DNA of 64,000 bases, taken from NCBI GenBank assembly GCA_043725085.1, contig JAYSLY010000007.1:1471-65470 (forward strand), written 5' to 3'. The position numbers and the translations under genes are program-made. Shown one piece after another: positions 37,827 to 59,718 of this stretch. The notes beneath the pieces are model-generated. The model ran no database searches. It was not told the DNA's origin and worked only from the letters and a program-made list of their open reading frames with translations. How positions within the stretch are numbered: the first letter of the stretch is position 1; each line of letters begins with the position of its first letter. Origin of the DNA: a bacterium (GTDB taxonomy: Bacteria; Patescibacteriota; Minisyncoccia; Moranbacterales; UBA2206).

Positions 37827-38104
37827 AGTATTATTATTTTATTAATTAATTATAAAGAAACTTATTACTATTATTATAAATTAAACTTTTGTGGATAATT
37901 GAGATATAGAGCTAAGATGAGGGATAAATAGTGGAGATAATCTGTGGATAACCCTCATCTGAGTTGCTGGATAAACCATTAGTGTTATTGGGTTGGTGAG
38001 GAAAAGCTTTTGGCTTACTAAGATAATAAACAGGAAAAACTTATAATTAAGCAGGGTTTTTAGCCTCTTTACAACACCTTATCCACAACTTATACGCATT
38101 TAAC
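37827..38104. other. candidate oriC: an AT-rich unwinding region plus three perfect and several degenerate DnaA boxes between dnaA and dnaN
   Basis: TGTGGATAA at 37890-37898 and 37943-37951. TTATCCACA at 38079-38087. Degenerate TGGAGATAA and TGGATAAAC. AT tract 37827-37885. Confidence 0.6.
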
Positions 38105-39490: not shown

Positions 39491-39850
39491 TTTTTTAATA
39501 ATAAAAAAGGGTTAATAAGAGATTATTTTCTTAAAATAATCTAAAAACAATTTTTTGTTTTTGTATATTGAGAAAAGTATAGCACGGGAGAAGGCGGCGG
39601 AACATTGCAAAAAAGAGAGTAACTTGTTGATAAACTGTGAATATGCTTTAAAGCTAATACAAAAACCCTAAAAAAGCAAGTGCTGGGCGCGGTGTGTTTG
39701 GGCAAAAGTGAGCAATGAGGGACTTGTATTTCGGGTTTTTTTGAGAGGCTTATGCGCAAGTCTTACAAAAAGGCTTTTTAATTGACTTTTTCTTGAATAA
39801 TTGATAAGCTTTCAATTGGTTAGTTATAAATAGTTTAACTTGCAAAATAA

Positions 39851-39988
39851 ATGAGCGTAACATATAAACCCAAGAGTATTAAAAGAAAAAGAAGCCACGG
39901 ATTTATTGAAAGAAACAGCACTGCTTCAGGCCGAAATGTGCTAAAAGCCAGAAGAAGAAAGGGTCGCGCTAAGTTGACAACTGTTTAA
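39851..39988 (+). CDS. rpmH: 50S ribosomal protein L34 (45 aa, absent from the ORF track)
   Basis: [45 protein letters not shown]. Confidence 0.8.
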
Positions 39989-40011
39989 GTTTTAATCTTT
40001 CAAAACTGACA

Positions 40012-47245: not shown

Positions 47246-48394
47246 TTAGAGGGTTATGCGATAGAGTTTTCCGTCTATTCTGTTTGTGAAAAACAAAATA
47301 CTTTCGTTAATGTCCAGAAAGGGATTTGCCGCGTCATATTTTTCGGTGATTTTATTTAAATCAATGATGCGATTTTTTTCTCCGGTGGTTGTGTTAATTT
47401 TCCAAAATGTATCGGTAGTGTGGAATTTTTCTTGGTCGTAGTCATTTGGCATGATGGCAGACGCGGGGACTTCTCCGGGCATTGCGCAATAAACAGTCAC
47501 ATTATCCTTGGCCCATGTGCATTTGGAGGTAAGTGAGGGAAAATCGAGATTCTTAAATTCACCGCCATTGGAATTGATCGTGGCAAGTTGGATTTTTGTG
47601 GAGCCTTTAGTGTCGGAATAGCTGACAAGAGCCATTGTTCCATCTTTATTCCAAAGATAGTCTGCTCCGAAAATGCCTTTTAGAAGGCTTTTTTCTTCCC
47701 CGCCAATTAGGGGAACTGATTTTAGGGTGGTTTCAAAGAAAGAATCGGGCTTGTTCCAAAAAGAAACTAAGCTACTTTTCGGGATTTGCGCAATCGAAAC
47801 ATTGCGAAAATCGATATCAGCCAATTTTGTCCAATTGGTTCCGTCCGGATCAGAGATGTTTAGGGTTCTTTTTTTGGTGGCAGCGTCGTAGTATTTGTAG
47901 AAAATACGGTTACTGCTATTTTGCCAGGCGATTTCGTCTACATTTTTCTTAAGCGGTGTGCTTTGTAGCGTGGTGTAGTCGTAGGAATAAAACTTTGTCG
48001 CTCCGGCACTCATAAATTTTGTGATTACTTTATTTTTGTCCGGTGACCACGAAACATCAGAAATCCCAATTAGCTCTTTGTCGGAAAAGGTTCTTTTGTT
48101 GTTGCCATCAAAATCAATCTGGTAGACTCGCCCGCTATTTTTGGAATAATATTTGATAGCATCACTGCCGCTGGCAAGTGTCGGGGAAAGCACGGCTTCA
48201 TCGGAAATGGCGGTTATGGGGTCGGTGCTGACCTTTGGTGGAATCTGGGGAGCGACAATTGTCGGAGCTTTTATTTCCGGGGCCTGAGCGACTTCCGTTG
48301 GTTTTCTAAACGCTAAATTATAGACACCAAAAAACAGCAGTGCAACGCAAAAAAGCGCAAGAGAAATAAAAAAGATTTTTTTGTTGAGAGGCAT
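47246..48394 (-). CDS. membrane-anchored beta-propeller (TolB-like) repeat protein
   Basis: N-terminal TM helix. Repeated D..G.....F motifs. Confidence 0.4.
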   Translation of the reverse strand: MPLNKKIFFISLALFCVALLFFGVYNLAFRKPTEVAQAPEIKAPTIVAPQIPPKVSTDPITAISDEAVLSPTLASGSDAIKYYSKNSGRVYQIDFDGNNKRTFSDKELIGISDVSWSPDKNKVITKFMSAGATKFYSYDYTTLQSTPLKKNVDEIAWQNSSNRIFYKYYDAATKKRTLNISDPDGTNWTKLADIDFRNVSIAQIPKSSLVSFWNKPDSFFETTLKSVPLIGGEEKSLLKGIFGADYLWNKDGTMALVSYSDTKGSTKIQLATINSNGGEFKNLDFPSLTSKCTWAKDNVTVYCAMPGEVPASAIMPNDYDQEKFHTTDTFWKINTTTGEKNRIIDLNKITEKYDAANPFLDINESILFFTNRIDGKLYRITL

Positions 48395-48412: not shown

Positions 48413-49279
48413 TTAATATCCTCGTTGACAATTATTGGTGCTGACATGCACATGATTTGCTTCACTTGACTCATCTTTGATGGATTTGTCTGATATGCCA
48501 CATTCTTTGGCAGCAGTCGTTATGTTTCCGACAGTTAAGCCTGTTGTGGTGGAAATGTCGACTGCTTCTGATTTTCCTCCGGCCACACCTCCATAATGGC
48601 AAGAACCTTTTTCGTGAGCACATGGCGGTTTGGCGTAGCCGGTGCCGCTGCACTTATCTAGTCCAGCGCTATCTGAAATGGAATTGATGGTCATTTTTGA
48701 TCCGAGCTTGTTTCTCAGACAAACAATGAGTGTTTGCAAAGAAGAAGACGCATCGCCCATTTGAGAATCAATGCCTGATTGAAATTTGAAATTTTCTTTG
48801 GAATAGCCGGATATTGGCGCTTCAGTGGAGGGAGTCAGGGAGCCAACGGATGAGCTGGTGGTTGAGCAAGAAAAGCTGGTCCAGCTTTTTCCTTCAATGC
48901 CAAAGGCACCTTTATCGCCTTCTTTTTTAGCGGAAAATACCCAAAAAACAGTGTTGATAATGAGCCAGGCACCAAGCATTAAGGAAAATCCAATCACAAC
49001 ACTTTGGATAAAACCTTTGGCTTTTGTGGCAAAAGTAGGGTCACCGGAGGAAACGACATACATGATGCCGGCGATGGATATGCCGGTTATGGAAATGGTT
49101 ACAATTATTTTCATTCCCCAATTGATGAGACCTTGAATTCCGATGAGAAAATGACAAAGCGTGCATGGGTCGGTTGCGCCAAGGCCGCAAGGAACGAGTC
49201 CACTGGCGGCATTAGCTTGAGAAAAGGTAAGAAGGAAAAGAGAGAAGCTGAAAAATAGAAAGAGGATTTTTTTTAGCAT
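48413..49279 (-). CDS. secreted protein with pilin-like topology (signal peptide + two hydrophobic helices) fused to a LAS-type (M15/M23-like) metallopeptidase-like C-terminal domain
   Basis: N-terminal LVPCGLGATDPCTLCHFLIGIQGLINWGMKIIVTISITGISIAGIMYVV. C-terminal SCHYGGVA...AVDI and ANHVHVS (SxHxxGxA..D and HxH). Confidence 0.4.
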   Translation of the reverse strand: MLKKILFLFFSFSLFLLTFSQANAASGLVPCGLGATDPCTLCHFLIGIQGLINWGMKIIVTISITGISIAGIMYVVSSGDPTFATKAKGFIQSVVIGFSLMLGAWLIINTVFWVFSAKKEGDKGAFGIEGKSWTSFSCSTTSSSVGSLTPSTEAPISGYSKENFKFQSGIDSQMGDASSSLQTLIVCLRNKLGSKMTINSISDSAGLDKCSGTGYAKPPCAHEKGSCHYGGVAGGKSEAVDISTTTGLTVGNITTAAKECGISDKSIKDESSEANHVHVSTNNCQRGY

Positions 49280-49291
49280 AAAATTTTTTAA

Positions 49292-49741
49292 TTATCTGGG
49301 AAAAGCTTTTCCGTTGGGGCAAAAGCTGAGACCAAATTCTTGCCCGGCTAAATTATCATTGGCGAAACTGGAAACACGCAGGGAAACATTTAGTGAGCAG
49401 GCTTGGTTTTGGGTTATGTTGAGTAATTGCAAGAAAGCCGCTTCCGCCTTTATTCTGGCTGATGTAATATCTGCGCCTTTAATGTCAATCAGAAAACTTC
49501 TATCTTTGGTGCCAAAATCAAAATAGACGATATCATAGTCGGAAGTGCTTTGCGCTAGTGTATCTTGCGGAGACAATTTTTTCGCTTCAGGTGTCGTTTT
49601 TATGTTGTTGATTGGAAGGCTGCCCTGGGTGGTTTGGACTGAAATAGTTGCTCCTTCCTTGGGAAAAAACACAGAATAAAGCCAATAAGAGGCAATAATA
49701 ATTAGCACGATACCAACAATGACGTAGATATTTTTTTTCAT
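49292..49741 (-). CDS. small membrane-anchored secreted protein (149 aa)
   Basis: Single N-terminal TM helix. Confidence 0.4.
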   Translation of the reverse strand: MKKNIYVIVGIVLIIIASYWLYSVFFPKEGATISVQTTQGSLPINNIKTTPEAKKLSPQDTLAQSTSDYDIVYFDFGTKDRSFLIDIKGADITSARIKAEAAFLQLLNITQNQACSLNVSLRVSSFANDNLAGQEFGLSFCPNGKAFPR

Positions 49742-49771
49742 AGCAGTAAGGTTATAATTTAATTTTTTTGT

Positions 49772-50869
49772 TTATAGCCCGCATTTATTGGCTGTGTTTA
49801 CCCAAGGGCTTGTATTGGAACCATTAGAGCCACTACTTGGCAAGTTGCAAGCGGCTGTGATGTTCATTTGACCATTTTTCAGTTTATTAAGACATTCTGT
49901 GTATTTTGCCATGTCCTTAACTTCGCAATCGCGCTTTTTGCAATAGGATAATCCGCTAGAATTAGTGACTGTTTCCAGGCAGGTGCCTTGAGGTCCACTA
50001 CCATTTACAGTGAAAATATCAGATCCTTTGCATCCGATAGATCCAGCGCTCGTGATCATATTTATTTGAAATAAGCCAATTGAAAATGCGTTTCCATCTT
50101 TGCATCTGTCAGTGCAATTGTCTGTGGTACTCGCGCATTTATTTGGGTTTCCATTCGATTCGACACTGCAAATTTTTGACATTTTTTCAGCATTTGATCC
50201 AAAGCAACCAGTTTGCAGATTAGTTATGGTGCAATCTCCCCCGGGTACTGGTGTGCAAGTTCCTGTACTGGTTCCGTTATTGCCAGTATTGCTACTACTA
50301 TTACTACCAGTAGTGTCATAGTTATTACCGCCGATTTGCACTAGAGCGGGGTTGATTGTATAGAGAAGGATGTATGACGTGAGAGCGAGGATTACTCCGG
50401 CAATCGCATCAACGATGTAGCCCTTGGCAGTGCCCATTGTGCTGGTATTTCCGCCACTTGTGATATACATGAAAGCACCGATAGAGATCATAAGCATAGC
50501 GGCGATGCCAACGGTCCAGAGGCCAAACTGATAAAGTTGCAAAATATATGCGGTACTATCCCCGGTTTTAGGGAATCCGGGAATTGCTTCCATGGGGACA
50601 TAGGGGAAGGCTTGTTGTGGTTGGTTTTGTGTTGTAGTTGCTGGCTTCTGGTATTGTTTGCATCCAGAGATAGTGGCACATGTCCCTGTTGTTTTTGAGC
50701 TATACCCAGATTGGCAACCAGTGGAAGAATTGCTATCAATGCAAACATCTCCAGTGCTAGGAACGCAACACCAGGGAGTGCTTGATTCTGCATAAGCATT
50801 TTTGACTAGAAAAAAATCAAAAAGTAAAACCGCAGCCAGGATTAAGGATAATTTTAGGTTATTTTTCAT
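49772..50869 (-). CDS. secreted protein with pilin-like two-helix segment fused to a lytic transglycosylase (SLT/VirB1-like) domain
   Basis: Signal peptide and a Cys-rich region. Hydrophobic pair AYILQLYQFGLWTVGIAAMLMISIGAFMYI...GVILALTSYILLY. SLT motifs CSVESNGNPN and AFSIGLFQINMITSAG. Confidence 0.5.
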   Translation of the reverse strand: MKNNLKLSLILAAVLLFDFFLVKNAYAESSTPWCCVPSTGDVCIDSNSSTGCQSGYSSKTTGTCATISGCKQYQKPATTTQNQPQQAFPYVPMEAIPGFPKTGDSTAYILQLYQFGLWTVGIAAMLMISIGAFMYITSGGNTSTMGTAKGYIVDAIAGVILALTSYILLYTINPALVQIGGNNYDTTGSNSSSNTGNNGTSTGTCTPVPGGDCTITNLQTGCFGSNAEKMSKICSVESNGNPNKCASTTDNCTDRCKDGNAFSIGLFQINMITSAGSIGCKGSDIFTVNGSGPQGTCLETVTNSSGLSYCKKRDCEVKDMAKYTECLNKLKNGQMNITAACNLPSSGSNGSNTSPWVNTANKCGL

Positions 50870-50884: not shown

Positions 50885-53761
50885 TTAAAATTCATCGAAC
50901 GTTCTTTTTGGTAGCACGAAAAAAATGATTTTTATGGCGAGAATGATAGCGAGTCCGGAAAGGGCCATGCGGAAAAGAAAGGCGAAATAGCTGGGGATGC
51001 CGGAAGAAACAGTCGCAAGAACTTTTCCGGGTGAAGTTTCTTTTTGAGAAAGCGTTGTGTCATTGCTTACCATTTCAATTTCAATGTTATGCGTCAATTT
51101 CTTCTCATAGAATTCATTATAGGTGACATCCCAATATTTGTTAAGCATTTGGCGCATCGAGTTGGTGGGTGTGAAGGTGGTGGAGAGAGAGATGATATAT
51201 TTTTCACCAACATTTTTTGGCGGAAGGGTTAATCTTCCAAAGTGCGCCGTGTCAATCATGTATCCATAGTTCCTGGCATTGTCGGCGTTGATAGTTGTGC
51301 CATCAATATTCCATTGATAGGGACAATTTGATGATTGACCGGCAGTGTCATTGAAATTTTCTGTTCCAACTGTTCCGGAAAAGACAGGTGTTAGCACTAT
51401 ATTATTTCCCGTTCGTGCCTGAAAACTTGTGTCGCTGTGATCAGGATAGGACGTGTTGTTGAAATCTTTATATTCCCCCAAAACTAAACCGAGACAAGTT
51501 GGCTTGCCCGAAGTGTCCTGGTTATCCTTTCCTTCCGGCACAATTTTTACGTCCGGCGATGAGATTTTGAAAACTTTGCTTAGATCGATTCTTTTTCCGG
51601 TTGTTTTGTTGAGTGCGGACAGGCTGATATTATATTGATCACCAATGTTTTTTAGGACAGGAAAATAGATGGTAGTTCCTGTTTTGCCACTAGCATCAAA
51701 ACAGTCTTTGAAATGTTCGTCAGCGCAAGTCAATGGCGCTCCGTCAACTGTCCAAAGAAAATCAGTGTAGGTTGGGTTTGCTGCAGTTCCATTGTCAATT
51801 TTCATTCCAATCAGTTCATCTTTTGCTACTTCGCAGACTGCTGCTGGCACCGGGCTAGTTGTTATTGAGCCATCGGATTTTTTTTCCGGTATGTCTGCAA
51901 GGCATCTTTCATCACTGGTTCCGCTGGCGTTAATTTCTGCGGTAGGCGTTGCATCGGATTGATTGAGGTAGACAAGGCCTGCTGTATAAACCTTAATATA
52001 TTCTCCGGAGGAAGAAATTGGCGTGGTGATGTCGGCGTGACCTTCTCTTTCCGCTCCTCCTCCGGCGAGAGTTTCTTTTACAGTCACTTTTACTTTGAGA
52101 TATTTTTTCGGGCTTGGGAAATTTAAATTGAATTTAAGTGTATTAATCCCCAATCCGGAGGTTTGCGTGGATCCATCTAGGGCAGTTTTTGGAAGTGGAT
52201 TTCCCCAGTCGTCCGGATTTGCTTCATCGCTGGCATAAACTTCCCATGTGTAGCTGAGGTAGGCGGCGTTGTTGGCGTTAGGAACTGAAGCGGTGAGGCT
52301 GAGCGTATCACCGTTTTTACTGGAAGAGGTATCGTTGATTGGATTTTCCGGTAAATATTTGAGTGAAACGTCAAGTTTTTCTTTCGCGCCTCCTCCCTCG
52401 GTGGGTGTTACGAGATTTTCATAAAGACAATCATTCAAGTTATTAATATCAAAATTAGTCATTTTGATTGACTTGTATTCATCGGCTCCTGAGCAGCCGG
52501 TAGTGCCACTTTCCAGTTCGCTCGGAGAGCAGGTGTGGCTTGTGATTGTTTCATTCAGTTGAGTCTCGCTCAGTAATTGTGGGTCTGTACCGACATAGGT
52601 CACGACAGTGTGGATGGTGGTAGTTGTTCTGATTGTGGCATTGTCATTAACTTGGTTTGTGTTAGGAGCAATATCCTCAACTGTTTTTGTGGAAATGGTT
52701 GTGGTGTAGTCTGTGGCGGCGGGAGGCGGAACGCTTGTGCTTCCGGAAATTGCTTTTGTGTTTGGGTAGGTCGTGGTGGTGTCTTCGGTTGTTTTTGGAT
52801 AATCGGAATTACCTGTGCCTGCTTTGATATTATTTTTGTCGCCACATGTATTTTTAGTGAATGCCCACATAGTTTCATAGGATGAGTCAGATATTTGGGT
52901 TGGTTGAATTGAAACGCCTTCTACGGCAACGCCGACCTGATCTCCTGCCGAATAGGAAAAGGAAAAAACATTTTCACCTAAGCCAACAATATTGGCTTCA
53001 TCGGGATGGCCTGTTCCGGCCGTGTCTTTATTTTTTGGATTAGTGTGCCAAAATTTTTCCTCGTTAGCGTCAAATTCATTATCACCGGTTGTATGTCCGG
53101 GAGCGTTGGGGAAAAGATGGTGGCACGCTATTTCATTGTCATCGCCACTTTTAACATCATGCACGAAGCAGTGTTCTTTTTTACCTCGTTGGTCATCTCC
53201 GCCAAAAGGGGCACTGTATCCATCATTGTCAGTGTCACTGGAGTAATCGGCGTTTTGCCAGTCGAAATCATTACTAGCCAGTATTCGCATAGCTTTCATT
53301 TTGTAGTCTTCGATATCAACCTCACCGTCTCCATTGAGATCACAGGCCTTAAAATCATCACTTTTTTTGTAGTCAGAAGTGTATTTGTCGTGGTCTAGTT
53401 TGTCATCAAAGCATCTGGCGCTTTTGATATACCACGTGAAATAGAGGTTTTCCGGCATATTCATGAAGTAGGATGGCGTGGTGGTGACAGTCACTTTTTC
53501 CCCCGGCACTGGGTCGACCGGATCAAAGGTGAGTGAAACAGTGGGGGGCGTGACTTTTTTTCTGGCAACATTGACTGATTTCATCGTGTTTTGTATCTCG
53601 TCTTTGTTGACACCAAAAGCGCCCATGACGGTGTCCATAAGCGCCATTGGATTACCCAAGGCAACGCCCAATAGATCGGCGTGAGCCGGCGCGGCGGTCA
53701 GTGAAAAAATATTGATGATAACCAAAAAAGTGATTATGGCTTTTTTAATTCTTGTTTTCAT
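50885..53761 (-). CDS. large (~958 aa) surface protein with a signal peptide, acidic Ca-binding-like repeats and a C-terminal TM anchor
   Basis: Start at the ATG giving MKTRIKKAIITFLVIINIFSLTAAPAHA. DLNGDGEVDIEDY and DTDNDGYSAPFGGDD repeats. C-terminal LSGLAIILAIKIIFFVL. The ORF-track start at 53899 is an upstream extension. Confidence 0.5.
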   Translation of the reverse strand: MKTRIKKAIITFLVIINIFSLTAAPAHADLLGVALGNPMALMDTVMGAFGVNKDEIQNTMKSVNVARKKVTPPTVSLTFDPVDPVPGEKVTVTTTPSYFMNMPENLYFTWYIKSARCFDDKLDHDKYTSDYKKSDDFKACDLNGDGEVDIEDYKMKAMRILASNDFDWQNADYSSDTDNDGYSAPFGGDDQRGKKEHCFVHDVKSGDDNEIACHHLFPNAPGHTTGDNEFDANEEKFWHTNPKNKDTAGTGHPDEANIVGLGENVFSFSYSAGDQVGVAVEGVSIQPTQISDSSYETMWAFTKNTCGDKNNIKAGTGNSDYPKTTEDTTTTYPNTKAISGSTSVPPPAATDYTTTISTKTVEDIAPNTNQVNDNATIRTTTTIHTVVTYVGTDPQLLSETQLNETITSHTCSPSELESGTTGCSGADEYKSIKMTNFDINNLNDCLYENLVTPTEGGGAKEKLDVSLKYLPENPINDTSSSKNGDTLSLTASVPNANNAAYLSYTWEVYASDEANPDDWGNPLPKTALDGSTQTSGLGINTLKFNLNFPSPKKYLKVKVTVKETLAGGGAEREGHADITTPISSSGEYIKVYTAGLVYLNQSDATPTAEINASGTSDERCLADIPEKKSDGSITTSPVPAAVCEVAKDELIGMKIDNGTAANPTYTDFLWTVDGAPLTCADEHFKDCFDASGKTGTTIYFPVLKNIGDQYNISLSALNKTTGKRIDLSKVFKISSPDVKIVPEGKDNQDTSGKPTCLGLVLGEYKDFNNTSYPDHSDTSFQARTGNNIVLTPVFSGTVGTENFNDTAGQSSNCPYQWNIDGTTINADNARNYGYMIDTAHFGRLTLPPKNVGEKYIISLSTTFTPTNSMRQMLNKYWDVTYNEFYEKKLTHNIEIEMVSNDTTLSQKETSPGKVLATVSSGIPSYFAFLFRMALSGLAIILAIKIIFFVLPKRTFDEF

Positions 53762-54420
53762 TTCGTAAGATAAATAATATACGCGTCTAGGAATATTATA
53801 ACAAAAATACTCATAAAATACGAATAGAAAAATGATTTTGTTTTGTAGGCAAGAAATCCTGCGGTGACTGAGAGTAGGACAAGTGAGGCTGATTGCCAAG
53901 AAAGGGCTTTAGTAAAAAAAAGTAGCGTGAAAAATAGAATTGCTTGCACAGCAATTGCCCAATGTTTGAATTTTTTTTGCAAAACAGAAAGGAGAAAGCC
54001 TTGGAAGAAAAAACTGGAAGCAAAAACTGTGAAATTGACGATTAATAATTCATAGGCTAAAAATAGCCAAAAATTGTTTTTTATGTAATCTGATAATGTG
54101 TAGTTAGCCTTAAATTGGGTGTAATTTAGCATTAAATACAGTAAAAAAAGTGTAAAAAGTGCGGTGATTGCTCCCCAAGCCAGAGAAGTTATTGGATTTT
54201 TCAGATTGCAGCCAAAATCGGCGAGATCTTTTTTCAGAATAATTTTTACATAAGCAATCGGGAGAAGAATGAGAAAAAATAAGTTTTTTGTGATAGTTTG
54301 TACGGAGTTTTGGGTGGGAAAAACAGCGCTGGAGAAAAGACAAATGAGCGCCAGACCAAAACCGACCAGCAGTTCTTGGTTATCTTTCAAAAAATTTCGT
54401 GGTGTTTTTTGGCGGTACAT
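53758..54420 (-). CDS. polytopic membrane protein, possibly a CPBP/Abi-family-like intramembrane protease with degenerate motifs
   Basis: Six to seven TM helices. YELLIVN...FQGFLL and FKHWAIAVQ. Confidence 0.3.
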   Translation of the reverse strand: MYRQKTPRNFLKDNQELLVGFGLALICLFSSAVFPTQNSVQTITKNLFFLILLPIAYVKIILKKDLADFGCNLKNPITSLAWGAITALFTLFLLYLMLNYTQFKANYTLSDYIKNNFWLFLAYELLIVNFTVFASSFFFQGFLLSVLQKKFKHWAIAVQAILFFTLLFFTKALSWQSASLVLLSVTAGFLAYKTKSFFYSYFMSIFVIIFLDAYIIYLTK

Positions 54421-54436: not shown

Positions 54437-55006
54437 CTAGTCTTGGTAGGCGTAGGCAGCTGTCATTCGGGCGGCTTCTCTTTGTTCTTCTGCGGCGGCT
54501 TCTCTTCTGTTTTTTAGGATTAAAATAAAAATAACAAATGTCGTGATTGTTTCCAGGGGAAGAAAGTCTATGATAGGCAGCATTTCAAGAACGGTGCCGG
54601 CAATGAGAACTTTCCATTTATCAGGAGTAAAAATACTTTTTATCATGGATCTTTTCTTGCTTTGGCGCAACCCGGCACCGCAAAGAAGCATAGCCGCCCA
54701 GGTAATAATTCCGGCCATAAAGGCTGTAACTACGCCAAGAAGCTGTAGGCCAGGAACGGCATTTGCGACAAAATCGACAATGTCTTTCAGGAGAGAGCTC
54801 ATTATGGCAATGGCAAAAAAGAAATCTGTGAGCTGGATAAATTTTCTAAGATGTTCGGTGTCGGTAACTTCGGCTTCTCTGGCGATTTCATTGGCTAGTT
54901 TTCCTAGACTCTTTTTTTGCTTATTAACTTCAAGCTCTCTCTTTTTTTCTGCATCAGCCGCTCTTTGCGCCTCTAGGCGTTGTTGGTTTTCTTCTTCTTT
55001 TGACAT
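54437..55006 (-). CDS. membrane protein with a charged coiled-coil N-terminus (possible T4SS accessory component)
   Basis: N-terminal EENQQRLEAQRAADAEKKRELE, then three TM helices. Confidence 0.35.
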   Translation of the reverse strand: MSKEEENQQRLEAQRAADAEKKRELEVNKQKKSLGKLANEIAREAEVTDTEHLRKFIQLTDFFFAIAIMSSLLKDIVDFVANAVPGLQLLGVVTAFMAGIITWAAMLLCGAGLRQSKKRSMIKSIFTPDKWKVLIAGTVLEMLPIIDFLPLETITTFVIFILILKNRREAAAEEQREAARMTAAYAYQD

Positions 55007-55052: not shown

Positions 55053-56897
55053 TTATTCTTCCTCGCTAAATTCCTTCTTTGCCCTTTCGATGTCTAGCAG
55101 TTGCGACGGGTCGGTAGTGATGATTTGATCTTCAGAATAGGACGCAACGACTTTGATGGCGACGTGATTTGTGCCGGCAAAAAAGATGCCCTCTCCCACG
55201 TTGCTTTCGAGGAGCAAGAATTTTTCTTGATCAGTGAGATAGAATGTGTCAGAAATCACATCAATTCCGGCCGGCGATTGCTTGAGCAGGAGCTGCAAAG
55301 ACGAGTTGGTCACAATCGCTTTGCCATAGCGAGAAGAAAGAAAGTCGTTCACATCTTGTGTGATGGTGGTGAGTCCGGTGAAATATTTTCGGCAGCGCTT
55401 GGCGATACCAAAAAGGAAAGAAGCGGCGTCTTCATATTTCATCATTACCCAAGCTTCATCAACCAAAACTAGGCGCTTTTTCATGTTGGTGCGCATTTCA
55501 TTCCAGATAAATTGCAAGATGGTGTACATAGCAACCGGACGCAATTCCTCTTCCATATCGCGGATATTAAACACCACCAGCTGATTATCAACTTTAATGT
55601 TAGTGGCGTGATTGAGAAATCCGGCGAAAATTCCTTCGGTGTATTTTTCCAGGCGAACAGCCAAAACCTCTCCGCCGTCCAGGCTGCGCAAGACTTGATA
55701 GAGGTCGGACATTGTTGGGAAAGAATCTTTGCTTAAAGCATTTAAATCCGCTTCCGCAGTGATGTCTCTAATTGAATAAGTTTCGTGGATTGCTCGATCC
55801 AAAACAGAATCTTCTTCCGGAGTGATTGATCCGAGCATGATGTGGAGTAGTCCCAGGAGATTGGCAATGTTATTGCGCAAAATATCTTCCGGGTCATCAT
55901 CTTCTCCGACATGCGGCAGGTCAAAAGGATTGAGATGGTTGGTCGAATTGAGGGAAATCTTGATGAAAGTTCCTTCAACAGTGTCGCAGAGGTGACGGTA
56001 TTCATTTTCCGGGTCGATAATGATGACATCAGTGCCTACCATCATCGAACGCAAAACTTCCAACTTGACGGTATAACTTTTTCCCGCTCCAGACTTGGCA
56101 AAAACTACCATGTTAGCATTTTCCATTCCAAAACGGTCGAAAATAATCAAGCTGTTATTGTGGCGGTTAATGCCATAGAGGATTCCTGTATTAGATGAAA
56201 GAGTGGAAGAGACAAAAGGAAAGGTGGTGGAAAGCGGTGAGCTATTCATGTTTGTTCCCACGTCTAACTCGTCGTTGGCAAGGGGTAACGATGAGTTGAA
56301 GCCTTGTTCTGATTTGAAAACAGCCGGTTTGACATAGACTAATTGGGCTTCCAAAATAGCCTCAATGCTTTTTATGTTTTTCGTAACCGCTTCTTCGCTA
56401 TCGCCATAGGCGGTGATGTAGAGGGAAAAACGAAAAAATTTTTCTGTGCCTTGTTGCAGCTTATCTCTGAGTTCATCAATATCTTGTTGAGCGGTTTCCA
56501 GAGCGGGGTCTCTGATGAGGCCTTTGGTTTGTTCGATTTGAATCTGTGATTCAACTTGAGTGGCGCTTTTTTTCAAAGTTTTCAAAATATCATAGGTATC
56601 GACCGGATGAATAAACATGGAGATGTCAATCGGCATATCGATATTTATAATGGGAGAAAACCAATTACTGTGCAAATAGCGCGGATAGGCGATGATGAAG
56701 ATGGTTTGCGCAATCGTTTCTCCGATGCGAATCGATTTCGGCATAATTCTGATTGCGGCGGGAGCGATGATGTCGTTGAGCTTGGCCAGCCCTTCTTGAT
56801 AATATTTTTCCGATTCCAAAACCTCGTCTTGCGGTTTTGCGACTTTTTTTGCGGGAGCGGTTAGGCCCTCATCTTTTTTAGCGAATAAATTTAGCAT
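55053..56897 (-). CDS. virB4: VirB4/TraE-family type IV secretion ATPase (ATPase portion)
   Basis: AYPRYLHSNWFSPIINIDMPID. Walker A VVFAKSGAGKSYTV. Walker B region LVLVDEAW. Confidence 0.8.
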   Translation of the reverse strand: MLNLFAKKDEGLTAPAKKVAKPQDEVLESEKYYQEGLAKLNDIIAPAAIRIMPKSIRIGETIAQTIFIIAYPRYLHSNWFSPIINIDMPIDISMFIHPVDTYDILKTLKKSATQVESQIQIEQTKGLIRDPALETAQQDIDELRDKLQQGTEKFFRFSLYITAYGDSEEAVTKNIKSIEAILEAQLVYVKPAVFKSEQGFNSSLPLANDELDVGTNMNSSPLSTTFPFVSSTLSSNTGILYGINRHNNSLIIFDRFGMENANMVVFAKSGAGKSYTVKLEVLRSMMVGTDVIIIDPENEYRHLCDTVEGTFIKISLNSTNHLNPFDLPHVGEDDDPEDILRNNIANLLGLLHIMLGSITPEEDSVLDRAIHETYSIRDITAEADLNALSKDSFPTMSDLYQVLRSLDGGEVLAVRLEKYTEGIFAGFLNHATNIKVDNQLVVFNIRDMEEELRPVAMYTILQFIWNEMRTNMKKRLVLVDEAWVMMKYEDAASFLFGIAKRCRKYFTGLTTITQDVNDFLSSRYGKAIVTNSSLQLLLKQSPAGIDVISDTFYLTDQEKFLLLESNVGEGIFFAGTNHVAIKVVASYSEDQIITTDPSQLLDIERAKKEFSEEE

Positions 56898-56972: not shown

Positions 56973-57659
56973 TCATTTGAGTTCCATCTTCTCCGTATCG
57001 ATATAGCCTTTAGTGTCGAAGATGGTCGGATTGTAGGCATTAAACAGCAGTTCAATCAGCTCGGGGGTTTTCAGGGGAATGATTTTGACGCCAATGCCGG
57101 AAAGTCCGGCGGTGAGGTGATCGACTCTTTGATAAAGTTGGCTTTTGTATGTTTCAAATGTTTCTCTTTTTTCCAGGATGCTTCTTTTGGGATTCAGCAT
57201 GTTGGAAAGATTGCTCAGAAAACTTCTGTCTTGATTTTCCATGGGAGAAAATGGCACGACTATGTAGAAAGTTTTGTCCATAATGTCAGACATGGAGACC
57301 AATTGGGTGATAAAATTTTTATATTCTGAAATTTGCAAACGCATCAGTTCAGTTTTTTGTTGTTTTTCTTTGGTAGTTAGAAAATCAATATAGGTGTCGA
57401 TGTTCAATTTCCGTGAGCTAATAAGAACTTGCATCGGAAAGTCAACTGAGTTGAGGAAATTTTGATATTGGCTGATGATAGCTTCTTGTTCATCGGTGGC
57501 CTTGAGTTCAAAATTGATCGCGGAAACAGCTAAAACTGCCCTCATCGAGCCGTTTTTAAGCACAATCACATCTTCTTTGACTTCTGCCACATCAAGATAT
57601 TGCTGGGTCGGCGAAGCGGCGGATTGTTTGGCGAGCTTTTGAGAATATAGTTTTTCCAT
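56973..57659 (-). CDS. VirB4 N-terminal domain (CagE/TrbE/VirB family) encoded as a separate ORF
   Basis: QYLDVAEVKEDVIVLKNGSMRAVLAVSAINFELKATDEQEAIISQYQNFLNSV aligns with the canonical VirB4 N-terminus (IVLLEDGSIMSIARIDGVAFELEEIEMRNARCRAFNTLMRNI). Confidence 0.6.
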   Translation of the reverse strand: MEKLYSQKLAKQSAASPTQQYLDVAEVKEDVIVLKNGSMRAVLAVSAINFELKATDEQEAIISQYQNFLNSVDFPMQVLISSRKLNIDTYIDFLTTKEKQQKTELMRLQISEYKNFITQLVSMSDIMDKTFYIVVPFSPMENQDRSFLSNLSNMLNPKRSILEKRETFETYKSQLYQRVDHLTAGLSGIGVKIIPLKTPELIELLFNAYNPTIFDTKGYIDTEKMELK

Positions 57660-57665: not shown

Positions 57666-58067
57666 TTATTTTTTCCTTATGTCTAATAATTGCGAAATAT
57701 CAGCGACTTTTTGAGCGTCAAATTTCTTTTTTGTAACGACTGAAGCCGCATTTTCTTTTTTGTCGATGGTGGTTTTTTGAATTTTTTCCGTGACGCGGCG
57801 CCAGATATACATTTTTGGACGAGTAGCAAAAAGGACTGAGGAAAGAATGAATTTAATCAGCGGTTGGTTGTAGGGGCGATAAAAGGCCAATGCTCCAAAA
57901 ATGACGGCGATGATAATGGCGGAAAGAATGAAAGCGGATTGGTCGAGTGTTCCATAGCAAATCAAAAGCACAACTCCTCCGGCGGCTAACCAGCCAAGTT
58001 GTCTGGCGGTCAGCGGACCGACGATTTTGTCTTCAATATCGATAAATTGGGGGACGTTGAAAATCAT
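57666..58067 (-). CDS. PrgI-family (VirB3-like) small membrane protein
   Basis: NVPQFIDIEDKIVGPLTARQLGWLAAGGVV followed by two TM helices. Confidence 0.55.
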   Translation of the reverse strand: MIFNVPQFIDIEDKIVGPLTARQLGWLAAGGVVLLICYGTLDQSAFILSAIIIAVIFGALAFYRPYNQPLIKFILSSVLFATRPKMYIWRRVTEKIQKTTIDKKENAASVVTKKKFDAQKVADISQLLDIRKK

Positions 58068-58130: not shown

Positions 58131-58505
58131 CTATTGGGTTTCTTTGTTTTCTTTCAGTGTCAGGGCTATTTTTGAAAATATCAATGTTAGTTCTTGTGCT
58201 TCTTTCCAGAGTTTTCTGCCTTCTTCTTTGTGTTCAGGATTGGATTTTGCAAGGAGTTCTAGCCAATATTTTGTTTCTTTGCACTCCTTTTTGCAGATAT
58301 AGATCTTATTGTGGAAATCCTTTTTTGAGCTTGCTCCGTTAGCTTCGCAGTAATTCGCGCCTATGCTGGTCGCAGAACGAACCAGTTGGCTCATCAGTGG
58401 AGTGTTTGTGATGTCTCTGCTTAATTTTTTAATAAAAACAATTACCTCTTCACTAAACTTCAGAGTTCTGGACTCTAAATCATACTTTTCCGAATTTTTT
58501 GTCAT
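58131..58505 (-). CDS. four-helix-bundle protein (TIGR02436-type, formerly '23S rRNA intervening-sequence protein')
   Basis: SATSIGANYCEANGASSKKDFHNKIYICKKECKETKYWLELL. Confidence 0.6.
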   Translation of the reverse strand: MTKNSEKYDLESRTLKFSEEVIVFIKKLSRDITNTPLMSQLVRSATSIGANYCEANGASSKKDFHNKIYICKKECKETKYWLELLAKSNPEHKEEGRKLWKEAQELTLIFSKIALTLKENKETQ

Positions 58506-58545: not shown

Positions 58546-59718
58546 TTAAAATTGGTCATTGTTCTTTAAGTCTACCACATTTTTTGGCATTGGTCTTGGG
58601 GTGGAATAATTAATTCTGGCAATTGGCGTGGGAGCGGGATAATTTTTTTGAAGCGGCTTTGGAATTTCCGGTGATTTTTCCGTGGAGAATGTTTGGGGTG
58701 ATGAAAATTTAATATTCTCTGCCGTGTTTCCATTTCTCAAGGCTTCTTTTTGGGGCAAATCTCTTCTCCAGGCGGCAATTCTTTCCTCGTCAGTTTGAAA
58801 TCTTTGCTGGCCTCCCGAAATGGTTTGTCTTGTTGGGTAGTTTCCTTGGCCTCTTTGGATTTCTGCCGGCTCGAAATTATTGCGAGTGGCACCTGGATTC
58901 ATTGTTGGTCTTTGCGGAATTTCTCTTTTTTCCGGTGCGGCAAAAACAACTTGCTTGGTGTTACCGTTGATTGAGATTGGTGTTTTTTCTTCAAATGATT
59001 TGAGAATGGCAGTTAGTTTTTCGCGGTCTTGACTGGAAAGCGGTCGGCCATTTTCACTTTTGAAAAGATAGTTTCCGCGTACAATCGGATCATGATTGCT
59101 GATGCCAACGGTGAAAGTGTAGTCAGAAAGCCAGTTTTTGATTGACGGACGCACCGGTTCGGGGAAAACCTTGAGTTTGATGTGATTTGAAGTGATGAGC
59201 TGCTCGCCTAGTTCAGGATATTTTTCTAAGGCAAGTTCGATTGGCATATTTTCCAATTGAGATTGCTGTTTTCTTATTATTTCATCTTCTGCTCTTTTTT
59301 CTTTTATTTTCTCTCTTTCTTCTTCTAAAATCCATGGCTCTAGCTCTAAAACTTTTTTCCAGGCCTCGCTTTCGGAAATCAGTGGGTTGGATTTCTTGTT
59401 GGACCATTCTTCCAGTAAGCTTAGTGAATCTTTGAAAAAATCAGGAAAACGGGCAAAAATTCGTTGGTTTATTTCATAGGCAATGCCAAAAATAACCTGT
59501 TCTGGTTGTTTTAGATCCTTGGCGATTATCGCAGGGTAATCCTTTAGTTTTAATTCGCCGATAAAAATGAGTGCGATTGGGTAGGATAATGTTTTTATTA
59601 CTTCTTCGCTTAATCCATAGATAAAACAGGTCTTTTCAATTTCATATCGTGGCGCATCAGATATAATAAATTCTCTCAGTGTATTTGGTAATTTATTTCT
59701 TTTTTCTAAATAGCTCAT
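58546..59718 (-). CDS. hypothetical protein with a Pro/Gln-rich C-terminal tail (390 aa)
   Basis: Long ORF with no recognised domain. Embedded in the T4SS-like cluster. Confidence 0.45.
   Translation of the reverse strand: MSYLEKRNKLPNTLREFIISDAPRYEIEKTCFIYGLSEEVIKTLSYPIALIFIGELKLKDYPAIIAKDLKQPEQVIFGIAYEINQRIFARFPDFFKDSLSLLEEWSNKKSNPLISESEAWKKVLELEPWILEEEREKIKEKRAEDEIIRKQQSQLENMPIELALEKYPELGEQLITSNHIKLKVFPEPVRPSIKNWLSDYTFTVGISNHDPIVRGNYLFKSENGRPLSSQDREKLTAILKSFEEKTPISINGNTKQVVFAAPEKREIPQRPTMNPGATRNNFEPAEIQRGQGNYPTRQTISGGQQRFQTDEERIAAWRRDLPQKEALRNGNTAENIKFSSPQTFSTEKSPEIPKPLQKNYPAPTPIARINYSTPRPMPKNVVDLKNNDQF

What the first reader, a model, noticed from the sequence alone, without database searches (positions are those of the whole stretch)
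48413..50869. Two secreted proteins combining a pilin-like hydrophobic helix pair with cell-wall hydrolase domains (SLT-like and LAS/M15-like)
Both proteins start with a signal peptide followed by two adjacent hydrophobic helices. That is the VirB2/TrbC-pilin-like topology, though it could equally be a membrane anchor.

49772-50869 then carries lytic-transglycosylase motifs (SVESNGN...GLFQIN). 48413-49279 carries SxHxxGxA..D and HxH motifs suggestive of a zinc peptidase.

Fusing the T4SS peptidoglycan-breaching enzymes to pilin-like modules would be an unusual architecture.
Basis: partly seen in the sequence, partly recalled or inferred. Interest (0 to 1): 0.5.

Follow-up and report, generated by a model that had tools for sequence, protein, structure and literature searches.

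The report
Pilin-fused cell-wall enzymes of T4SS
Two neighbouring genes at the end of a type IV secretion gene cluster of an ultra-small (CPR/Patescibacteria) bacterium each join a pilin-like membrane hairpin to a different cell-wall-cutting enzyme, a recurrent but undescribed design that may explain how these machines cross a cell wall without a separate VirB1 enzyme.

Summary
Both minus-strand ORFs (48413-49279, "A"; 49772-50869, "B") encode a signal peptide, a two-helix hydrophobic hairpin, a low-complexity linker and a Cys-rich C-terminal domain.

**Hairpin.** It belongs to the Pfam T4SS_pilin (VirB2-like) family by transitivity: sub-threshold in A and B, but matched at E<=0.01 by 33/41 and 31/35 homologues.

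**B's tail.** It has a lysozyme-like/SLT fold with an invariant Glu-Ser and GLFQIN.

**Context.** The genes close a conserved Moranbacteria T4SS operon next to dnaA: VirB6-like, PrgI/VirB3, split VirB4, Rce1-like, a large protein, B, A, a beta-propeller.

**Spread.** A's tail defines about 740 clusters (50% identity), and 114 of 122 newly recovered top representatives carry the hairpin. In sister genomes B's slot holds a PF01464 SLT on the same hairpin, and A's slot can hold a plain short pilin.

**Best reading.** These are T4SS-dedicated, pilin-borne glycan and peptide cutters, a VirB1 equivalent. Own wall versus host wall, and membrane anchor versus pilus subunit, remain open.

This is a new variant of a known kind, of moderate interest.

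The parts
48413..49279 (-). Protein A (288 aa): signal peptide, VirB2-like pilin hairpin, linker and a LAS/Hedgehog-DD-peptidase-like domain.
49208..49279 (-). A residues 1-24: Sec-type signal peptide (cleavage ...QANA|ASG).
   Evidence: Hydrophobic stretch 1-23. Read directly from the sequence.
48920..49207 (-). A residues 25-120: pilin module, comprising GLVPCG..PCTLCH, helix 41-76, loop SSGDPTFATKAKG and helix 81-116.
   Evidence: Pfam T4SS_pilin scores 14.6 bits on A itself, but 33/41 homologues match at E<=0.01. Own pilin HMM gives 5e-29.
48800..48919 (-). A residues 121-160: short beta-hairpin (WTSFSCSTTSS) followed by a Ser/Thr-rich linker.
   Evidence: pLDDT 58-68 and strands 129-137. 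Plain short pilins at the same locus position end just after this motif (L018, L021).
48416..48799 (-). A residues 161-288: LAS-like zinc-peptidase domain. Putative Zn ligands are H228, D241 and H278; H222, H276 and E273 are putative catalytic helpers.
49772..50869 (-). Protein B (365 aa): signal peptide, Cys-rich insert, VirB2-like pilin hairpin, Gly/Ser/Asn/Thr linker and a lysozyme-like (SLT_3-type) domain.
50336..50608 (-). B residues 88-178: pilin module (FPYVPMEAIPGF, helices 105-137 and 142-172, loop TSGGNTSTMGTAKG, ...YTINPALV).
   Evidence: Pfam T4SS_pilin scores 18.6 bits on B, and 31/35 homologues match. 28% identical to A's module, E 2e-6. Own HMM gives 8e-30. Foldseek top hit is 8dfu.
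49775..50260 (-). B residues 204-365: lysozyme-like/SLT domain with catalytic E237-S238, S263, G265-L-F-Q268-I-N270 and A340/C341...W356.
49292..49741 (-). p149: small membrane-anchored protein between B and A. It occurs only where the B-slot enzyme is of the SLT_3 type.
   Evidence: Present in 5/5 SLT_3-type loci and 0/11 SLT-type loci. Alignment A6. No Pfam or PDB match.
47246..48394 (-). prop382: secreted TolB-like beta-propeller protein, the constant downstream partner of the A-type pilin gene.
   Evidence: NCBIfam TolB propeller, 1.9e-5. It follows the A-type gene in the window and in L001-L012, L014-L016, L018, L021, L023 and L024.
50885..53899 (-). Large (about 960-1004 aa) secreted protein with a C-terminal TM helix, a conserved T4SS-cluster member. 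The true start is probably the ATG at about 53764.
   Evidence: Conserved position. No Pfam hit.
53758..54420 (-). Rce1-like (CPBP) intramembrane protease, conserved in the cluster.
   Evidence: Pfam PF02517, 1.2e-4 and 22.8 bits against a cut-off of 22.4. Present in every full-length cluster.
54437..55006 (-). p189: conserved cluster protein of unknown function.
55053..56897 (-). VirB4-type ATPase (C-terminal part).
   Evidence: Pfam P-loop_TraG 2.7e-29, AAA_10 and TraC_F_IV.
56973..57659 (-). VirB4 N-terminal part / TraC-like protein (228 aa). It is a separate gene in all relatives.
   Evidence: TraC_F_IV, weak. The L001 orthologue carries PF26593 TraC-like. Conserved split.
57666..58067 (-). 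PrgI / VirB3-like protein.
   Evidence: Pfam PrgI, 4.1e-12.
58546..59718 (-). p390: conserved cluster protein of unknown function.
59733..61658 (-). p641: VirB6/TrbL-like polytopic protein.
   Evidence: Homologous to the L001 gene annotated PF19590 TrbL_3.

Best explanation
A and B are the dedicated cell-wall-cutting enzymes of a patescibacterial (Moranbacteria-type), Gram-positive-like type IV secretion system. They are built on the system's own VirB2-like pilin scaffold.

Proposed steps, each marked as shown or inferred:
1. Export. Each protein is exported by Sec and its signal peptide is cut. The two helices insert as a hairpin with the short Lys-containing loop inside, so the mature N-terminus and the whole C-terminal domain lie outside the membrane. 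The topology logic is shown; the export itself is inferred.
2. Routing. The pilin module takes the protein to the T4SS, as a membrane-pool pilin that docks at or is extracted by the VirB4/VirB6/VirB3 core. This is inferred.
3. Cleavage. The flexible linker lets the enzyme reach peptidoglycan. B cleaves the glycan strand; it is lysozyme/SLT-type, with a single invariant Glu and a Ser where C-type lysozyme has Asp52, so it is probably a lytic transglycosylase. A cleaves the peptide stem or cross-link; it is a LAS-type Zn peptidase with the full H/D/H plus H, H, E constellation. The folds and residues are shown; the activities are inferred.

Together they give the glycan-plus-peptide cutting pair that Gram-positive T4SSs combine in one protein (PrgK, TraG of pIP501). 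They open a local gap for the channel or pilus.

I rate action on the producer's own wall (a VirB1-like gateway role) as somewhat more likely than action on the host's wall. The data do not separate the two.
For: **Domain identities**
- Pilin module.
- LAS fold and invariant metal/catalytic residues.
- Lysozyme-like fold and the E-S / GLFQIN motifs.

**Extracytoplasmic placement**
- Signal peptide plus two TM helices, and even Cys counts.

**T4SS linkage**
- The genes sit 15-30 nt apart at the 3' end of a same-strand cluster with PrgI, split VirB4 and a VirB6-like gene.
- The order p641-p390-PrgI-VirB4N-VirB4-p189-Rce1-big-B-A-propeller recurs in L001, L005, L007, L008, L010, L011, L012, L015 and L024. 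Partial copies occur on short contigs L004, L006 and L009.
- 10 of the 11 distinct loci with enough upstream sequence (the window plus 10 others, counting the identical L002/L003 once) have VirB4 within 10 kb.

**Scaffold behaviour**
- The same B-type hairpin (62% identity) carries a PF01464 SLT instead of an SLT_3-like tail in sister genomes.
- The A slot holds a plain 152-164-aa pilin in L018 and L021.
- 114 of the 122 newly recovered top representatives of the LAS-like tail carry the hairpin.

**Literature**
- Patescibacterial T4SSs lie near dnaA, have VirB2-like pilins and mostly lack a recognisable VirB1 (PMC12102498).
- In Southlakia the T4SS cluster encodes essential lysozyme-like (SEML1_0006) and Hedgehog/DD-peptidase (SEML1_0007) proteins downstream of virB4 (PMC10633639 supplement). 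That is the same two chemistries in a different packaging.
- The producer makes peptidoglycan: a class A PBP is encoded at 33788-36370.
Against: - No enzyme activity, metal binding, localisation or pilus has been shown for any member.
- A and B themselves score below the Pfam T4SS_pilin cut-off (14.6 and 18.6 bits against 26.6).
- A profile of the hairpin finds no solved VirB2/TraA pilin by sequence, and the Foldseek pilin hit is not significant (E 1.1).
- B itself does not hit SLT_3.
- A's His-to-Asp spacing (12) lies outside the LAS pattern, and no LAS Pfam family matches.
- In L002/L003 the A-type gene and the propeller sit near dnaA without adjacent T4SS genes.
- The strict pairing of p149 with the SLT_3-type enzyme would fit an effector/immunity pair, meaning an attack on another cell, better than a housekeeping gateway role.
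Confidence: 0.55

Rival explanations
1. Enzyme-armed pilus. A and B are true pilus subunits, either minor, tip or base pilins or decorated major pilins. The T4SS polymerises them, so the hydrolase domains ride on the filament on their 25-45-residue linkers and digest the HOST cell wall at the contact site. This would open the way for uptake or delivery during epibiotic growth.
For: - The hairpin is conserved far beyond what an anchor needs and is shared with plain short pilins at the same locus position.
- No other pilin gene lies in the 64-kb window or in the L001 cluster.
- In VirB2-type pili both termini face outward (own knowledge), which fits a C-terminal passenger.
- Related pilin modules carry other surface-type passengers: fn3/Ig domains, Cys-rich repeats and tails with an HExxH zincin signature.
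- p149 co-occurs strictly with the SLT_3-type enzyme, as an immunity protein would.
- The T4SS is essential for host-dependent growth in Saccharibacteria (PMC10633639).
Against: - No pilus has been seen for any of these systems.
- Separate tandem arrays of short pilins exist in Moraniibacteriota genomes (L026, L027, L034), so the fused forms need not be the filament builders.
- A 13-18 kDa passenger on every subunit of a narrow helical filament is sterically demanding (own estimate).
- The host and its wall chemistry are unknown.
Confidence: 0.22
2. Carrier and release. The pilin hairpin is a pro-domain or carrier. After membrane insertion, the cluster-encoded Rce1-like intramembrane protease (53758-54420) or another protease cuts near the conserved W-x-x-F-x-C-x-T-S-S motif. 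This would free a soluble hydrolase (compare VirB1*) and leave a mature short pilin.
For: - An Rce1-like/CPBP protease gene is a constant member of the cluster.
- Plain pilins in the A slot end exactly after that motif (L018, L021).
- The linkers are low-confidence and low-complexity.
Against: This is purely inferential. CPBP proteases have many other roles. No cleavage site or product is known. The B-type pilins lack the W..F.C.T.SS motif.
Confidence: 0.1
3. Generic anchored autolysins. The hairpin is only a membrane anchor. The two enzymes are housekeeping wall-remodelling hydrolases (growth or division) that merely lie next to the T4SS genes.
For: - In L002/L003 the A-type gene is not next to T4SS genes.
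- The neighbours on the other side are envelope-biogenesis genes (Wzy, glycosyltransferases, YidC).
- A and B score below the Pfam pilin threshold.
Against: - Synteny with VirB4 is conserved in 10 of 11 informative loci.
- Hairpin sequence conservation and T4SS_pilin hits occur across the families.
- Tail swapping occurs on a constant hairpin.
- 93% of the newly recovered top representatives of the LAS-like tail carry this particular hairpin.
Confidence: 0.08
4. Binding modules rather than enzymes. The tails are catalytically silent wall- or ligand-binding domains, as the hedgehog N-domain is usually regarded, and serve as adhesins.
For: The closest structures to A's tail are hedgehog signalling domains rather than peptidases. 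alpha-Lactalbumin, a non-enzyme, is among B's top hits.
Against: Every catalytic or metal residue is invariant over families that have diverged to 26-30% identity. That pattern argues for selection on chemistry rather than only on binding.
Confidence: 0.05

Closest known systems
T4SS-associated peptidoglycan hydrolases: VirB1 (Agrobacterium), PrgK (pCF10), TraG (pIP501), TcpG
   Same: They are encoded inside the T4SS operon. They use an SLT/lysozyme-type glycan cutter, and in Gram-positive systems a peptide cutter as well. The presumed job is to open the wall locally for the machine (PMC12102498).
   Different: VirB1 is soluble. PrgK and TraG have one N-terminal TM helix and stack several hydrolase domains in one protein, with a CHAP or LytM domain as the peptide cutter. 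Here each enzyme is a separate protein on a VirB2-like two-helix pilin module, and the peptide cutter is a hedgehog-like LAS domain.
Patescibacterial T4SS of Southlakia epibionticum (SEML1_0006-0019) and the VirB2-like pilin arrays of CPR genomes
   Same: The system type is the same: a location near dnaA, PrgI, split VirB4 and PF18895 pilins. The same two enzyme folds occur downstream of virB4: lysozyme-like in SEML1_0006 and Hedgehog/DD-peptidase at the C-terminus of SEML1_0007.
   Different: In Southlakia the pilins are short stand-alone proteins (104-185 aa) and the enzyme domains sit in large multidomain proteins (643 and 1113 aa). In the window the enzyme domains are fused to the pilins, and no plain pilin lies in the cluster.
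Pfam T4SS_pilin (PF18895) combined with SLT_3 (PF18896) or SLT (PF01464)
   Same: B belongs to this set. Homologues carry PF18895+PF18896 (P0052, P0058) or PF18895+PF01464 (P0138, P0140) in precomputed annotations.
   Different: I found no paper describing or interpreting this combination. A's LAS-like tail has no Pfam model at all.
LAS enzymes / Hedgehog-DD-peptidase fold (Streptomyces Zn DD-peptidase 1lbu, Ply500 L-Ala-D-Glu peptidase 2vo9, VanX/VanY, hedgehog N-domain)
   Different: A 6-7-residue insert makes the His-to-Asp spacing 12. The domain has six conserved Cys. No sequence-level membership in M15, M23, M74 or HH_signal was found. It is nearly always fused to a pilin hairpin.
FlgJ (flagellar rod cap + muramidase) and phage tail-tip lysozymes (for example T4 gp5)
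   Same: The analogy is functional: a wall-cutting enzyme is covalently joined to a structural subunit of the apparatus that must cross the wall (own knowledge).
   Different: The folds of the structural part and the machines are unrelated. No homology is implied.

Membership tests
VirB2/TrbC-type T4SS pilins (Pfam T4SS_pilin PF18895) | Match to the family HMM at or above the gathering score (26.6 bits). | tested here: inconclusive
   A scores 14.6 bits and B 18.6 bits, both below the cut-off. However, 33/41 A-homologues and 31/35 B-homologues match at E<=0.01, with best E-values of 1.7e-10 and 3.7e-10. Two homologues also hit TrbC PF04956.
VirB2/TrbC-type T4SS pilins (Pfam T4SS_pilin PF18895) | Cleavable signal peptide followed by two hydrophobic helices joined by a short polar loop. 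| tested here: met
VirB2/TrbC-type T4SS pilins (Pfam T4SS_pilin PF18895) | Encoded with VirB4 and other T4SS core genes. | tested here: met
VirB2/TrbC-type T4SS pilins (Pfam T4SS_pilin PF18895) | Similarity to an experimentally solved conjugative pilin. | tested here: inconclusive
   The hairpin profile gives no PDB pilin hit. The Foldseek top hit is the Aeropyrum conjugation pilus 8dfu, at only E 1.1, prob 0.92 and TM 0.62.
VirB2/TrbC-type T4SS pilins (Pfam T4SS_pilin PF18895) | Small size (about 70-130 aa mature) with no passenger domain. | tested here: not met
   Mature A is about 264 aa and mature B about 338 aa, each with a 130-160-aa C-terminal domain.
VirB2/TrbC-type T4SS pilins (Pfam T4SS_pilin PF18895) | Polymerises into an extracellular pilus. 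| not testable with these tools
   This needs microscopy or biochemistry.
LAS zinc peptidases / Hedgehog-DD-peptidase fold (MEROPS M15, M23, M74) | Hedgehog/DD-peptidase fold. | tested here: met
LAS zinc peptidases / Hedgehog-DD-peptidase fold (MEROPS M15, M23, M74) | Metal ligands His, Asp and His (the second from an H-x-H motif) are conserved. | tested here: met
   H228, D241, H276 and H278 are invariant in 41 sequences, and they align with the hedgehog motifs.
LAS zinc peptidases / Hedgehog-DD-peptidase fold (MEROPS M15, M23, M74) | H-x(3-6)-D spacing of the first two ligands (pattern recalled from the LAS literature). | tested here: not met
   The spacing is 12 residues (H228...D241) because of a conserved insert, GGVAGGKSE.
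LAS zinc peptidases / Hedgehog-DD-peptidase fold (MEROPS M15, M23, M74) | Sequence match to a curated LAS family model (Peptidase_M15 family, VanY, M23, M74, HH_signal). | tested here: not met
   A gave no Pfam hit at E<=1 and no NCBIfam hit. None of 41 family members matched at E<=0.01.
LAS zinc peptidases / Hedgehog-DD-peptidase fold (MEROPS M15, M23, M74) | Zn-dependent cleavage of a peptidoglycan peptide bond. | not testable with these tools
   This needs a biochemical assay.
Lysozyme-like / SLT lytic transglycosylases (Pfam SLT_3 PF18896, SLT PF01464) | Match to the family HMM. | tested here: inconclusive
   B itself gives no hit at E<=1. 25/35 homologues hit SLT_3 (best E 7.7e-9) and 2 hit SLT. 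B is 49% identical to P0004, which is annotated PF18896.
Lysozyme-like / SLT lytic transglycosylases (Pfam SLT_3 PF18896, SLT PF01464) | Catalytic Glu in an E-S motif plus the G-L-x-Q motif. | tested here: met
   E237, S238, S263, G265, Q268 and N270 are invariant.
Lysozyme-like / SLT lytic transglycosylases (Pfam SLT_3 PF18896, SLT PF01464) | Lysozyme-like fold. | tested here: met
Lysozyme-like / SLT lytic transglycosylases (Pfam SLT_3 PF18896, SLT PF01464) | Non-hydrolytic cleavage giving 1,6-anhydroMurNAc (transglycosylase rather than muramidase). | not testable with these tools
   There is only indirect evidence. By secondary-structure register, Ser263 occupies the position of lysozyme Asp52. 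A nearly invariant D254 nearby leaves the mechanism open.
T4SS-dedicated wall hydrolases (VirB1 / PrgK / TraG-pIP501 class) | Gene lies within the T4SS operon. | tested here: met
T4SS-dedicated wall hydrolases (VirB1 / PrgK / TraG-pIP501 class) | Required for T4SS assembly or transfer. | not testable with these tools
   No genetics are possible for uncultured Moranbacteria.

The most novel reading that the evidence does not exclude
The patescibacterial T4SS may build an enzyme-armed filament. In this reading the VirB2-like pilins are a display scaffold whose C-terminal passengers are carried out on the pilus to breach and grip the host cell envelope. The passengers include a lytic transglycosylase, a hedgehog-like Zn peptidase and, in relatives, tails with an HExxH zincin signature, fn3/Ig domains and Cys-rich modules. 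A small membrane protein (p149) would protect the producer from the SLT_3-type enzyme. This would be a new functional class of conjugative-type pilus, and a concrete mechanism for how CPR epibionts open their hosts.
Probability: 0.2. Interest if true: 0.8.

Novelty: new variant of a known kind. Interest (0 to 1): 0.5.

Why it matters
**What is already known.** The T4SS is essential for the host-dependent growth of the only genetically tractable Patescibacteria, and its role is called 'completely unknown' (PMC11665869). The recent survey of 3,035 genomes concluded that most pilin-bearing systems lack VirB1, so the pilus seems not to need one (PMC12102498).

**What this locus adds.** At least in Moranbacteria and other Parcubacteria, the wall-cutting functions are present but hidden inside the pilin genes themselves. 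They form a conserved pair, one glycan cutter and one peptide cutter.

**What it provides:**
- An explanation for the 'missing VirB1'.
- A sizeable unannotated domain family: about 740 clusters at 50% identity, with no Pfam model, related to the hedgehog/DD-peptidase fold.
- A testable idea that VirB2-like pilins can serve as carriers for extracellular enzymes.

**If wrong.** If the enzymes only remodel the producer's own wall, the finding is a neat architectural variant and no more.

Tried and rejected
**Searches that found nothing useful**
- Single-sequence searches of A and B against PDB sequences gave only noise: NGF, LMBD1 and SpaQ at E about 1.
- Pfam and NCBIfam on A and B themselves gave no C-terminal domain hit.
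- The full-length B-family profile against the PDB gave only spurious RNase A hits driven by Cys spacing.
- The full-length A-family profile also gave repeated 'Pizza' designer-protein hits from the hairpin. I disregarded these because each stretch scores about 4 bits.
- The hairpin-only profile against the PDB found no pilin, only HtrII transducer helices at E>1.
- The p149 profile against the PDB found nothing.

- The afdb50 fold library was unavailable.
- The search for related loci with the divergent tail alignment A3 failed for lack of a conserved stretch. I repeated it with the closer full-length set A5.
- Model coordinates are not exposed, so the Zn-site geometry could not be measured.

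**Readings considered and rejected**
- Split VirB4 as a frameshift or pseudogene: the 228 + 614 aa split is conserved in all relatives.
- The short 'stand-alone' LAS-domain proteins as evidence for a free enzyme: several of those inspected start inside TM helix 2, so they are truncated gene calls.
- The 'Bdellovibrionales' and 'Omnitrophota' labels on some loci as a wider taxonomic range: I suspect mislabelling but did not check this. All named full-length A homologues are from CPR lineages, except one record labelled Bathyarchaeia (P0126).

Full report
**1. What is in the sequence.**
One search lists two minus-strand ORFs exactly at the reported coordinates: A (48413-49279, 288 aa) and B (49772-50869, 365 aa). 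They are separated by a 149-aa ORF (49292-49741). Upstream lies a roughly 1000-aa ORF, and downstream a 382-aa ORF, with gaps of only 12-30 nt.

A hydropathy scan and two AlphaFold models (mean pLDDT 84.8, mean pLDDT 75.2) agree on the layout:
- an N-terminal signal peptide (A 1-24, ...ANA|A; B 1-27, ...AYA|E);
- a helix-loop-helix hairpin (A 41-76/81-116; B 105-137/142-172);
- a low-confidence Ser/Thr/Gly/Asn linker;
- a confidently folded C-terminal domain.

In B an extra Cys-rich insert (28-87, pLDDT about 40) sits between the signal peptide and the hairpin. With a cleaved signal peptide and two membrane helices, both the mature N-terminus and the C-terminal domain must lie outside the membrane. 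The even Cys counts (10 and 20) fit that.

**2. The hairpin is a T4SS_pilin-family module.**
- On A and B themselves Pfam T4SS_pilin (PF18895) scores 14.6 and 18.6 bits, below the 26.6-bit cut-off.
- Across the families, 33 of 41 A-homologues and 31 of 35 B-homologues match it at E<=0.01 (best E 1.7e-10 and 3.7e-10). Two also touch TrbC/VirB2 PF04956.
- The two modules are 28% identical to each other (E 2e-6).
- An HMM built from both families finds only these two ORFs in all six frames of the 64-kb window (8e-30 and 5e-29).
- A hairpin-only profile finds no solved pilin by sequence.
- The top Foldseek hit of model B in the whole PDB is the conjugative pilus of Aeropyrum pernix (8dfu). It is weak: E 1.1, probability 0.92, TM 0.62.

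I therefore treat 'VirB2-like pilin module' as well supported by family transitivity and context. It is not proven by similarity to an experimentally characterised pilin.

**3. The tail of A is a LAS/hedgehog-like zinc-peptidase domain without a curated family.**
- In 41 homologues down to 26% identity, the invariant columns of the tail are H222, S226, C227, H228, Y229, G230, G231, A239, D241, H276, H278, S280 and C284 (same result for the tail alone).
- No Pfam or NCBIfam model matches A or any of the 41 members.
- A profile of the tail alone hits about two dozen hedgehog N-domain sequences at E 0.004-0.045. The alignment pairs 'C-a-H-a-k-n-S-C-H-Y-G-G...A-v-D...n-H-v-H-v-S' with 'H-H-A-Q-D-S-L-H-Y-E-G-R-A-L-D...N-H-V-H-V-S'.
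- By that alignment, H228, D241 and H278 correspond to the hedgehog zinc ligands. H222 and the Glu just before the H-x-H correspond to the residues usually numbered H135 and E177 in Shh (numbering from my own knowledge).
- The one departure from the LAS pattern is a conserved 6-7-residue insert that stretches the His-to-Asp spacing to 12.

**4. The tail of B is lysozyme/SLT-like.**
- Invariant columns are E237, S238, S263, G265, Q268, N270, C326, A340, W356 and C363. These give the E-S and G-L-x-Q motifs of family-1 lytic transglycosylases.
- B itself misses the Pfam SLT_3 model, but 25 of 35 homologues hit it (best E 7.7e-9).
- By the strand register of the model, Ser263 sits where hen lysozyme has Asp52, which favours a transglycosylase-type single-acid mechanism. 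A nearly invariant D254 nearby leaves this open; a pairwise comparison with hen lysozyme gave only non-significant motif matches.

**5. Context: the 3' end of a patescibacterial T4SS operon beside the replication origin.**
Upstream on the same strand lie:
- PrgI/VirB3 (4e-12);
- a split VirB4 (TraC-like 228 aa plus P-loop_TraG 614 aa, 2.7e-29);
- an Rce1-like protease;
- several unknown proteins.

dnaA and dnaN lie 9-11 kb away, and the cumulative GC skew turns there. Names attached to homologues place the organism in Candidatus Moranbacteria/Moraniibacteriota.

In 48 related loci I scanned six-frame ORFs with HMMs for the hairpin, the two tails and the PF01464-like tail, and with the window's cluster proteins. 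The order VirB6-like - p390 - PrgI - VirB4N - VirB4 - p189 - Rce1-like - large protein - [B slot] - [A slot] - beta-propeller recurs in L001, L005, L007, L008, L010, L011, L012, L015 and L024. It recurs in part on short contigs L004, L006 and L009. Only L002/L003 have the A-type gene and the propeller without adjacent T4SS genes.

**6. The hairpin behaves as a scaffold with exchangeable passengers.**
- In the B slot, eleven loci carry the same hairpin with a PF01464-type SLT tail instead of the SLT_3-like tail. The hairpin of P0027 is 62% identical to B's over 117 residues, and the tails are unalignable.
- In the A slot, L018 and L021 carry plain 164- and 152-aa pilins that end just after the conserved W-x-x-F-x-C-x-T-S-S motif.
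- An exhaustive profile search with A's tail found 736 representatives (50% identity clusters) at E<=1e-3 and 540 at E<=1e-10. The domain is almost always C-terminal. 114 of the 122 newly recovered top representatives also carry the hairpin.
- Several of the apparently short 'free' domains that I inspected start inside helix 2, so they are truncated gene calls.
- Other loci show tandem arrays of 3-6 pilin genes, including in Moraniibacteriota (L026, L027, L034).
- Pilin modules also carry fn3/Ig domains, an SLT, Cys-rich repeats and tails with an HExxH signature.

**7. What is known.**
- Wang et al. 2023 showed that the Southlakia T4SS cluster, including six short PF18895 pilins, is essential (PMC10633639).
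- Their structure-based table lists, just downstream of virB4, SEML1_0006 (two lysozyme-like domains plus a cysteine protease) and SEML1_0007 (C-terminal Hedgehog/DD-peptidase domain, ECOD hit e6n7gC1).
- Quinonero-Coronel et al. 2025 surveyed 3,035 genomes. They found VirB2-like pilins near virB4 and the dnaA proximity, and noted that most genomes with pilins lack VirB1 (PMC12102498). They do not mention pilin-hydrolase fusions.
- Three literature searches found no paper that does.
- The combinations PF18895+PF18896 and PF18895+PF01464 are visible in precomputed Pfam annotations.

**8. Mechanism.**

*Shown:*
- the domain composition, the topology logic and the invariant catalytic residues;
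- the conserved T4SS synteny;
- the scaffold-like exchange of tails.

*Inferred:*
- that the pilin module routes the proteins to the T4SS;
- that B cuts glycan strands and A cuts peptide stems or cross-links;
- that together they do the job of VirB1/PrgK/TraG.

I give this 0.55.

*Not resolved:*
- whether the enzymes stay in the membrane at the machine, are built into a pilus, or are released by the cluster's Rce1-like protease;
- whether the target is the producer's wall (it has one: a class A PBP at 33788-36370) or the host's.

The strict pairing of the small membrane protein p149 with the SLT_3-type enzyme hints at an inhibitor or immunity function, and hence at an offensive role. It is present in 5 of 5 SLT_3-type loci and 0 of 11 SLT-type loci. 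The loci are phylogenetically related and nothing has been tested.

**9. Verdict.**
Two corrections apply. The peptidase is hedgehog/LAS-like rather than a recognisable M15 member. The architecture is unusual for textbook T4SSs but is a widespread CPR design.

I rate it a new variant of a known kind: T4SS-dedicated wall hydrolases in a pilin-fused packaging, plus an unannotated LAS-like domain family. Interest is 0.5.

Noticed in passing
window 49292-49741 (-); L008 9209-9733, L010 9447-9893, L012 9364-9942, L037 4942-5742: p149 is a small protein with an N-terminal TM anchor, two invariant Cys and a GLSFCPNGKAFP motif. It is present in all 5 loci whose B-slot pilin carries the SLT_3-like tail and in none of the 11 loci with the PF01464-like tail. 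It may be an inhibitor, immunity protein or chaperone for that enzyme. It has no Pfam or PDB match.
   Followed up: partly
window 47246-48394 (-): A secreted TolB-like beta-propeller protein (NCBIfam TolB propeller, 1.9e-5) follows the A-type pilin gene in every locus examined. That includes L002/L003, where no T4SS gene is adjacent. It is the tightest gene partner of A.
   Followed up: partly
window 53758-54420 (-): An Rce1-like/CPBP intramembrane protease gene is a constant member of the T4SS cluster. It could process the pilins or release their passenger domains.
   Followed up: no
window 55053-56897 and 56973-57659 (-): VirB4 is encoded as two genes, a 228-aa TraC-like N part and a 614-aa ATPase. 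The split is conserved in all related loci, so it is not a frameshift.
   Followed up: yes
window 58131-58505 (-): A 23S_rRNA_IVP-family (four-helix-bundle) gene (Pfam 1.2e-19) sits between p390 and PrgI. In L001, L005 and L007 these two genes are 19-46 nt apart, so the gene is a local insertion into the operon.
   Followed up: partly
window 50609-50788 (-), B residues 28-87: A Cys-rich (6 Cys), low-confidence insert lies between the signal peptide and the pilin module of B. Most homologues lack it, and a few carry different inserts at the same place. This is a second variable, outward-facing passenger site.
   Followed up: no
L016 1-1899, L023 6890-8656, L039 9415-11655, L032 2374-3459, L031, L035, L036, L043: The same pilin module is fused to other tails: fn3 plus Ig domains (L039), a PF01464 SLT (L032), long tails with an HExxH signature (L016, L023) and Cys-rich repeats. 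L023 9434-10822 ends in an S-x-H-x-x-G-x-x-x-D motif that resembles a canonical M15 site.
   Followed up: partly
L013, L017, L019, L020, L026-L028, L032-L034, L043, L048: These loci hold tandem arrays of 3-6 divergent pilin genes (96-495 aa), some in Moraniibacteriota genomes. In several members the pilin module is at the C-terminal end behind an N-terminal extension.
   Followed up: no
window 50885-53899 (-): The listed TTG start of the 1004-aa ORF overlaps the upstream Rce1-like gene by about 140 nt. The ATG 45 codons downstream (MKTRIKK..., about 53764), which is followed by a signal-like stretch, is the more likely start.
   Followed up: no
window 36000-40000: dnaN (36666-37826) and dnaA (38105-39490) lie here, and the minimum of the cumulative GC skew at about 36-38 kb marks the replication origin. 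The T4SS cluster starts about 8 kb away, as reported for many Patescibacteria.
   Followed up: partly
L029, L030, L032, L033, L039-L043 (record titles), L025: Several contigs carrying CPR-type pilin genes are titled 'uncultured Bdellovibrionales' or 'Omnitrophota'. I suspect taxonomic mislabelling of MAGs but did not check it.
   Followed up: no
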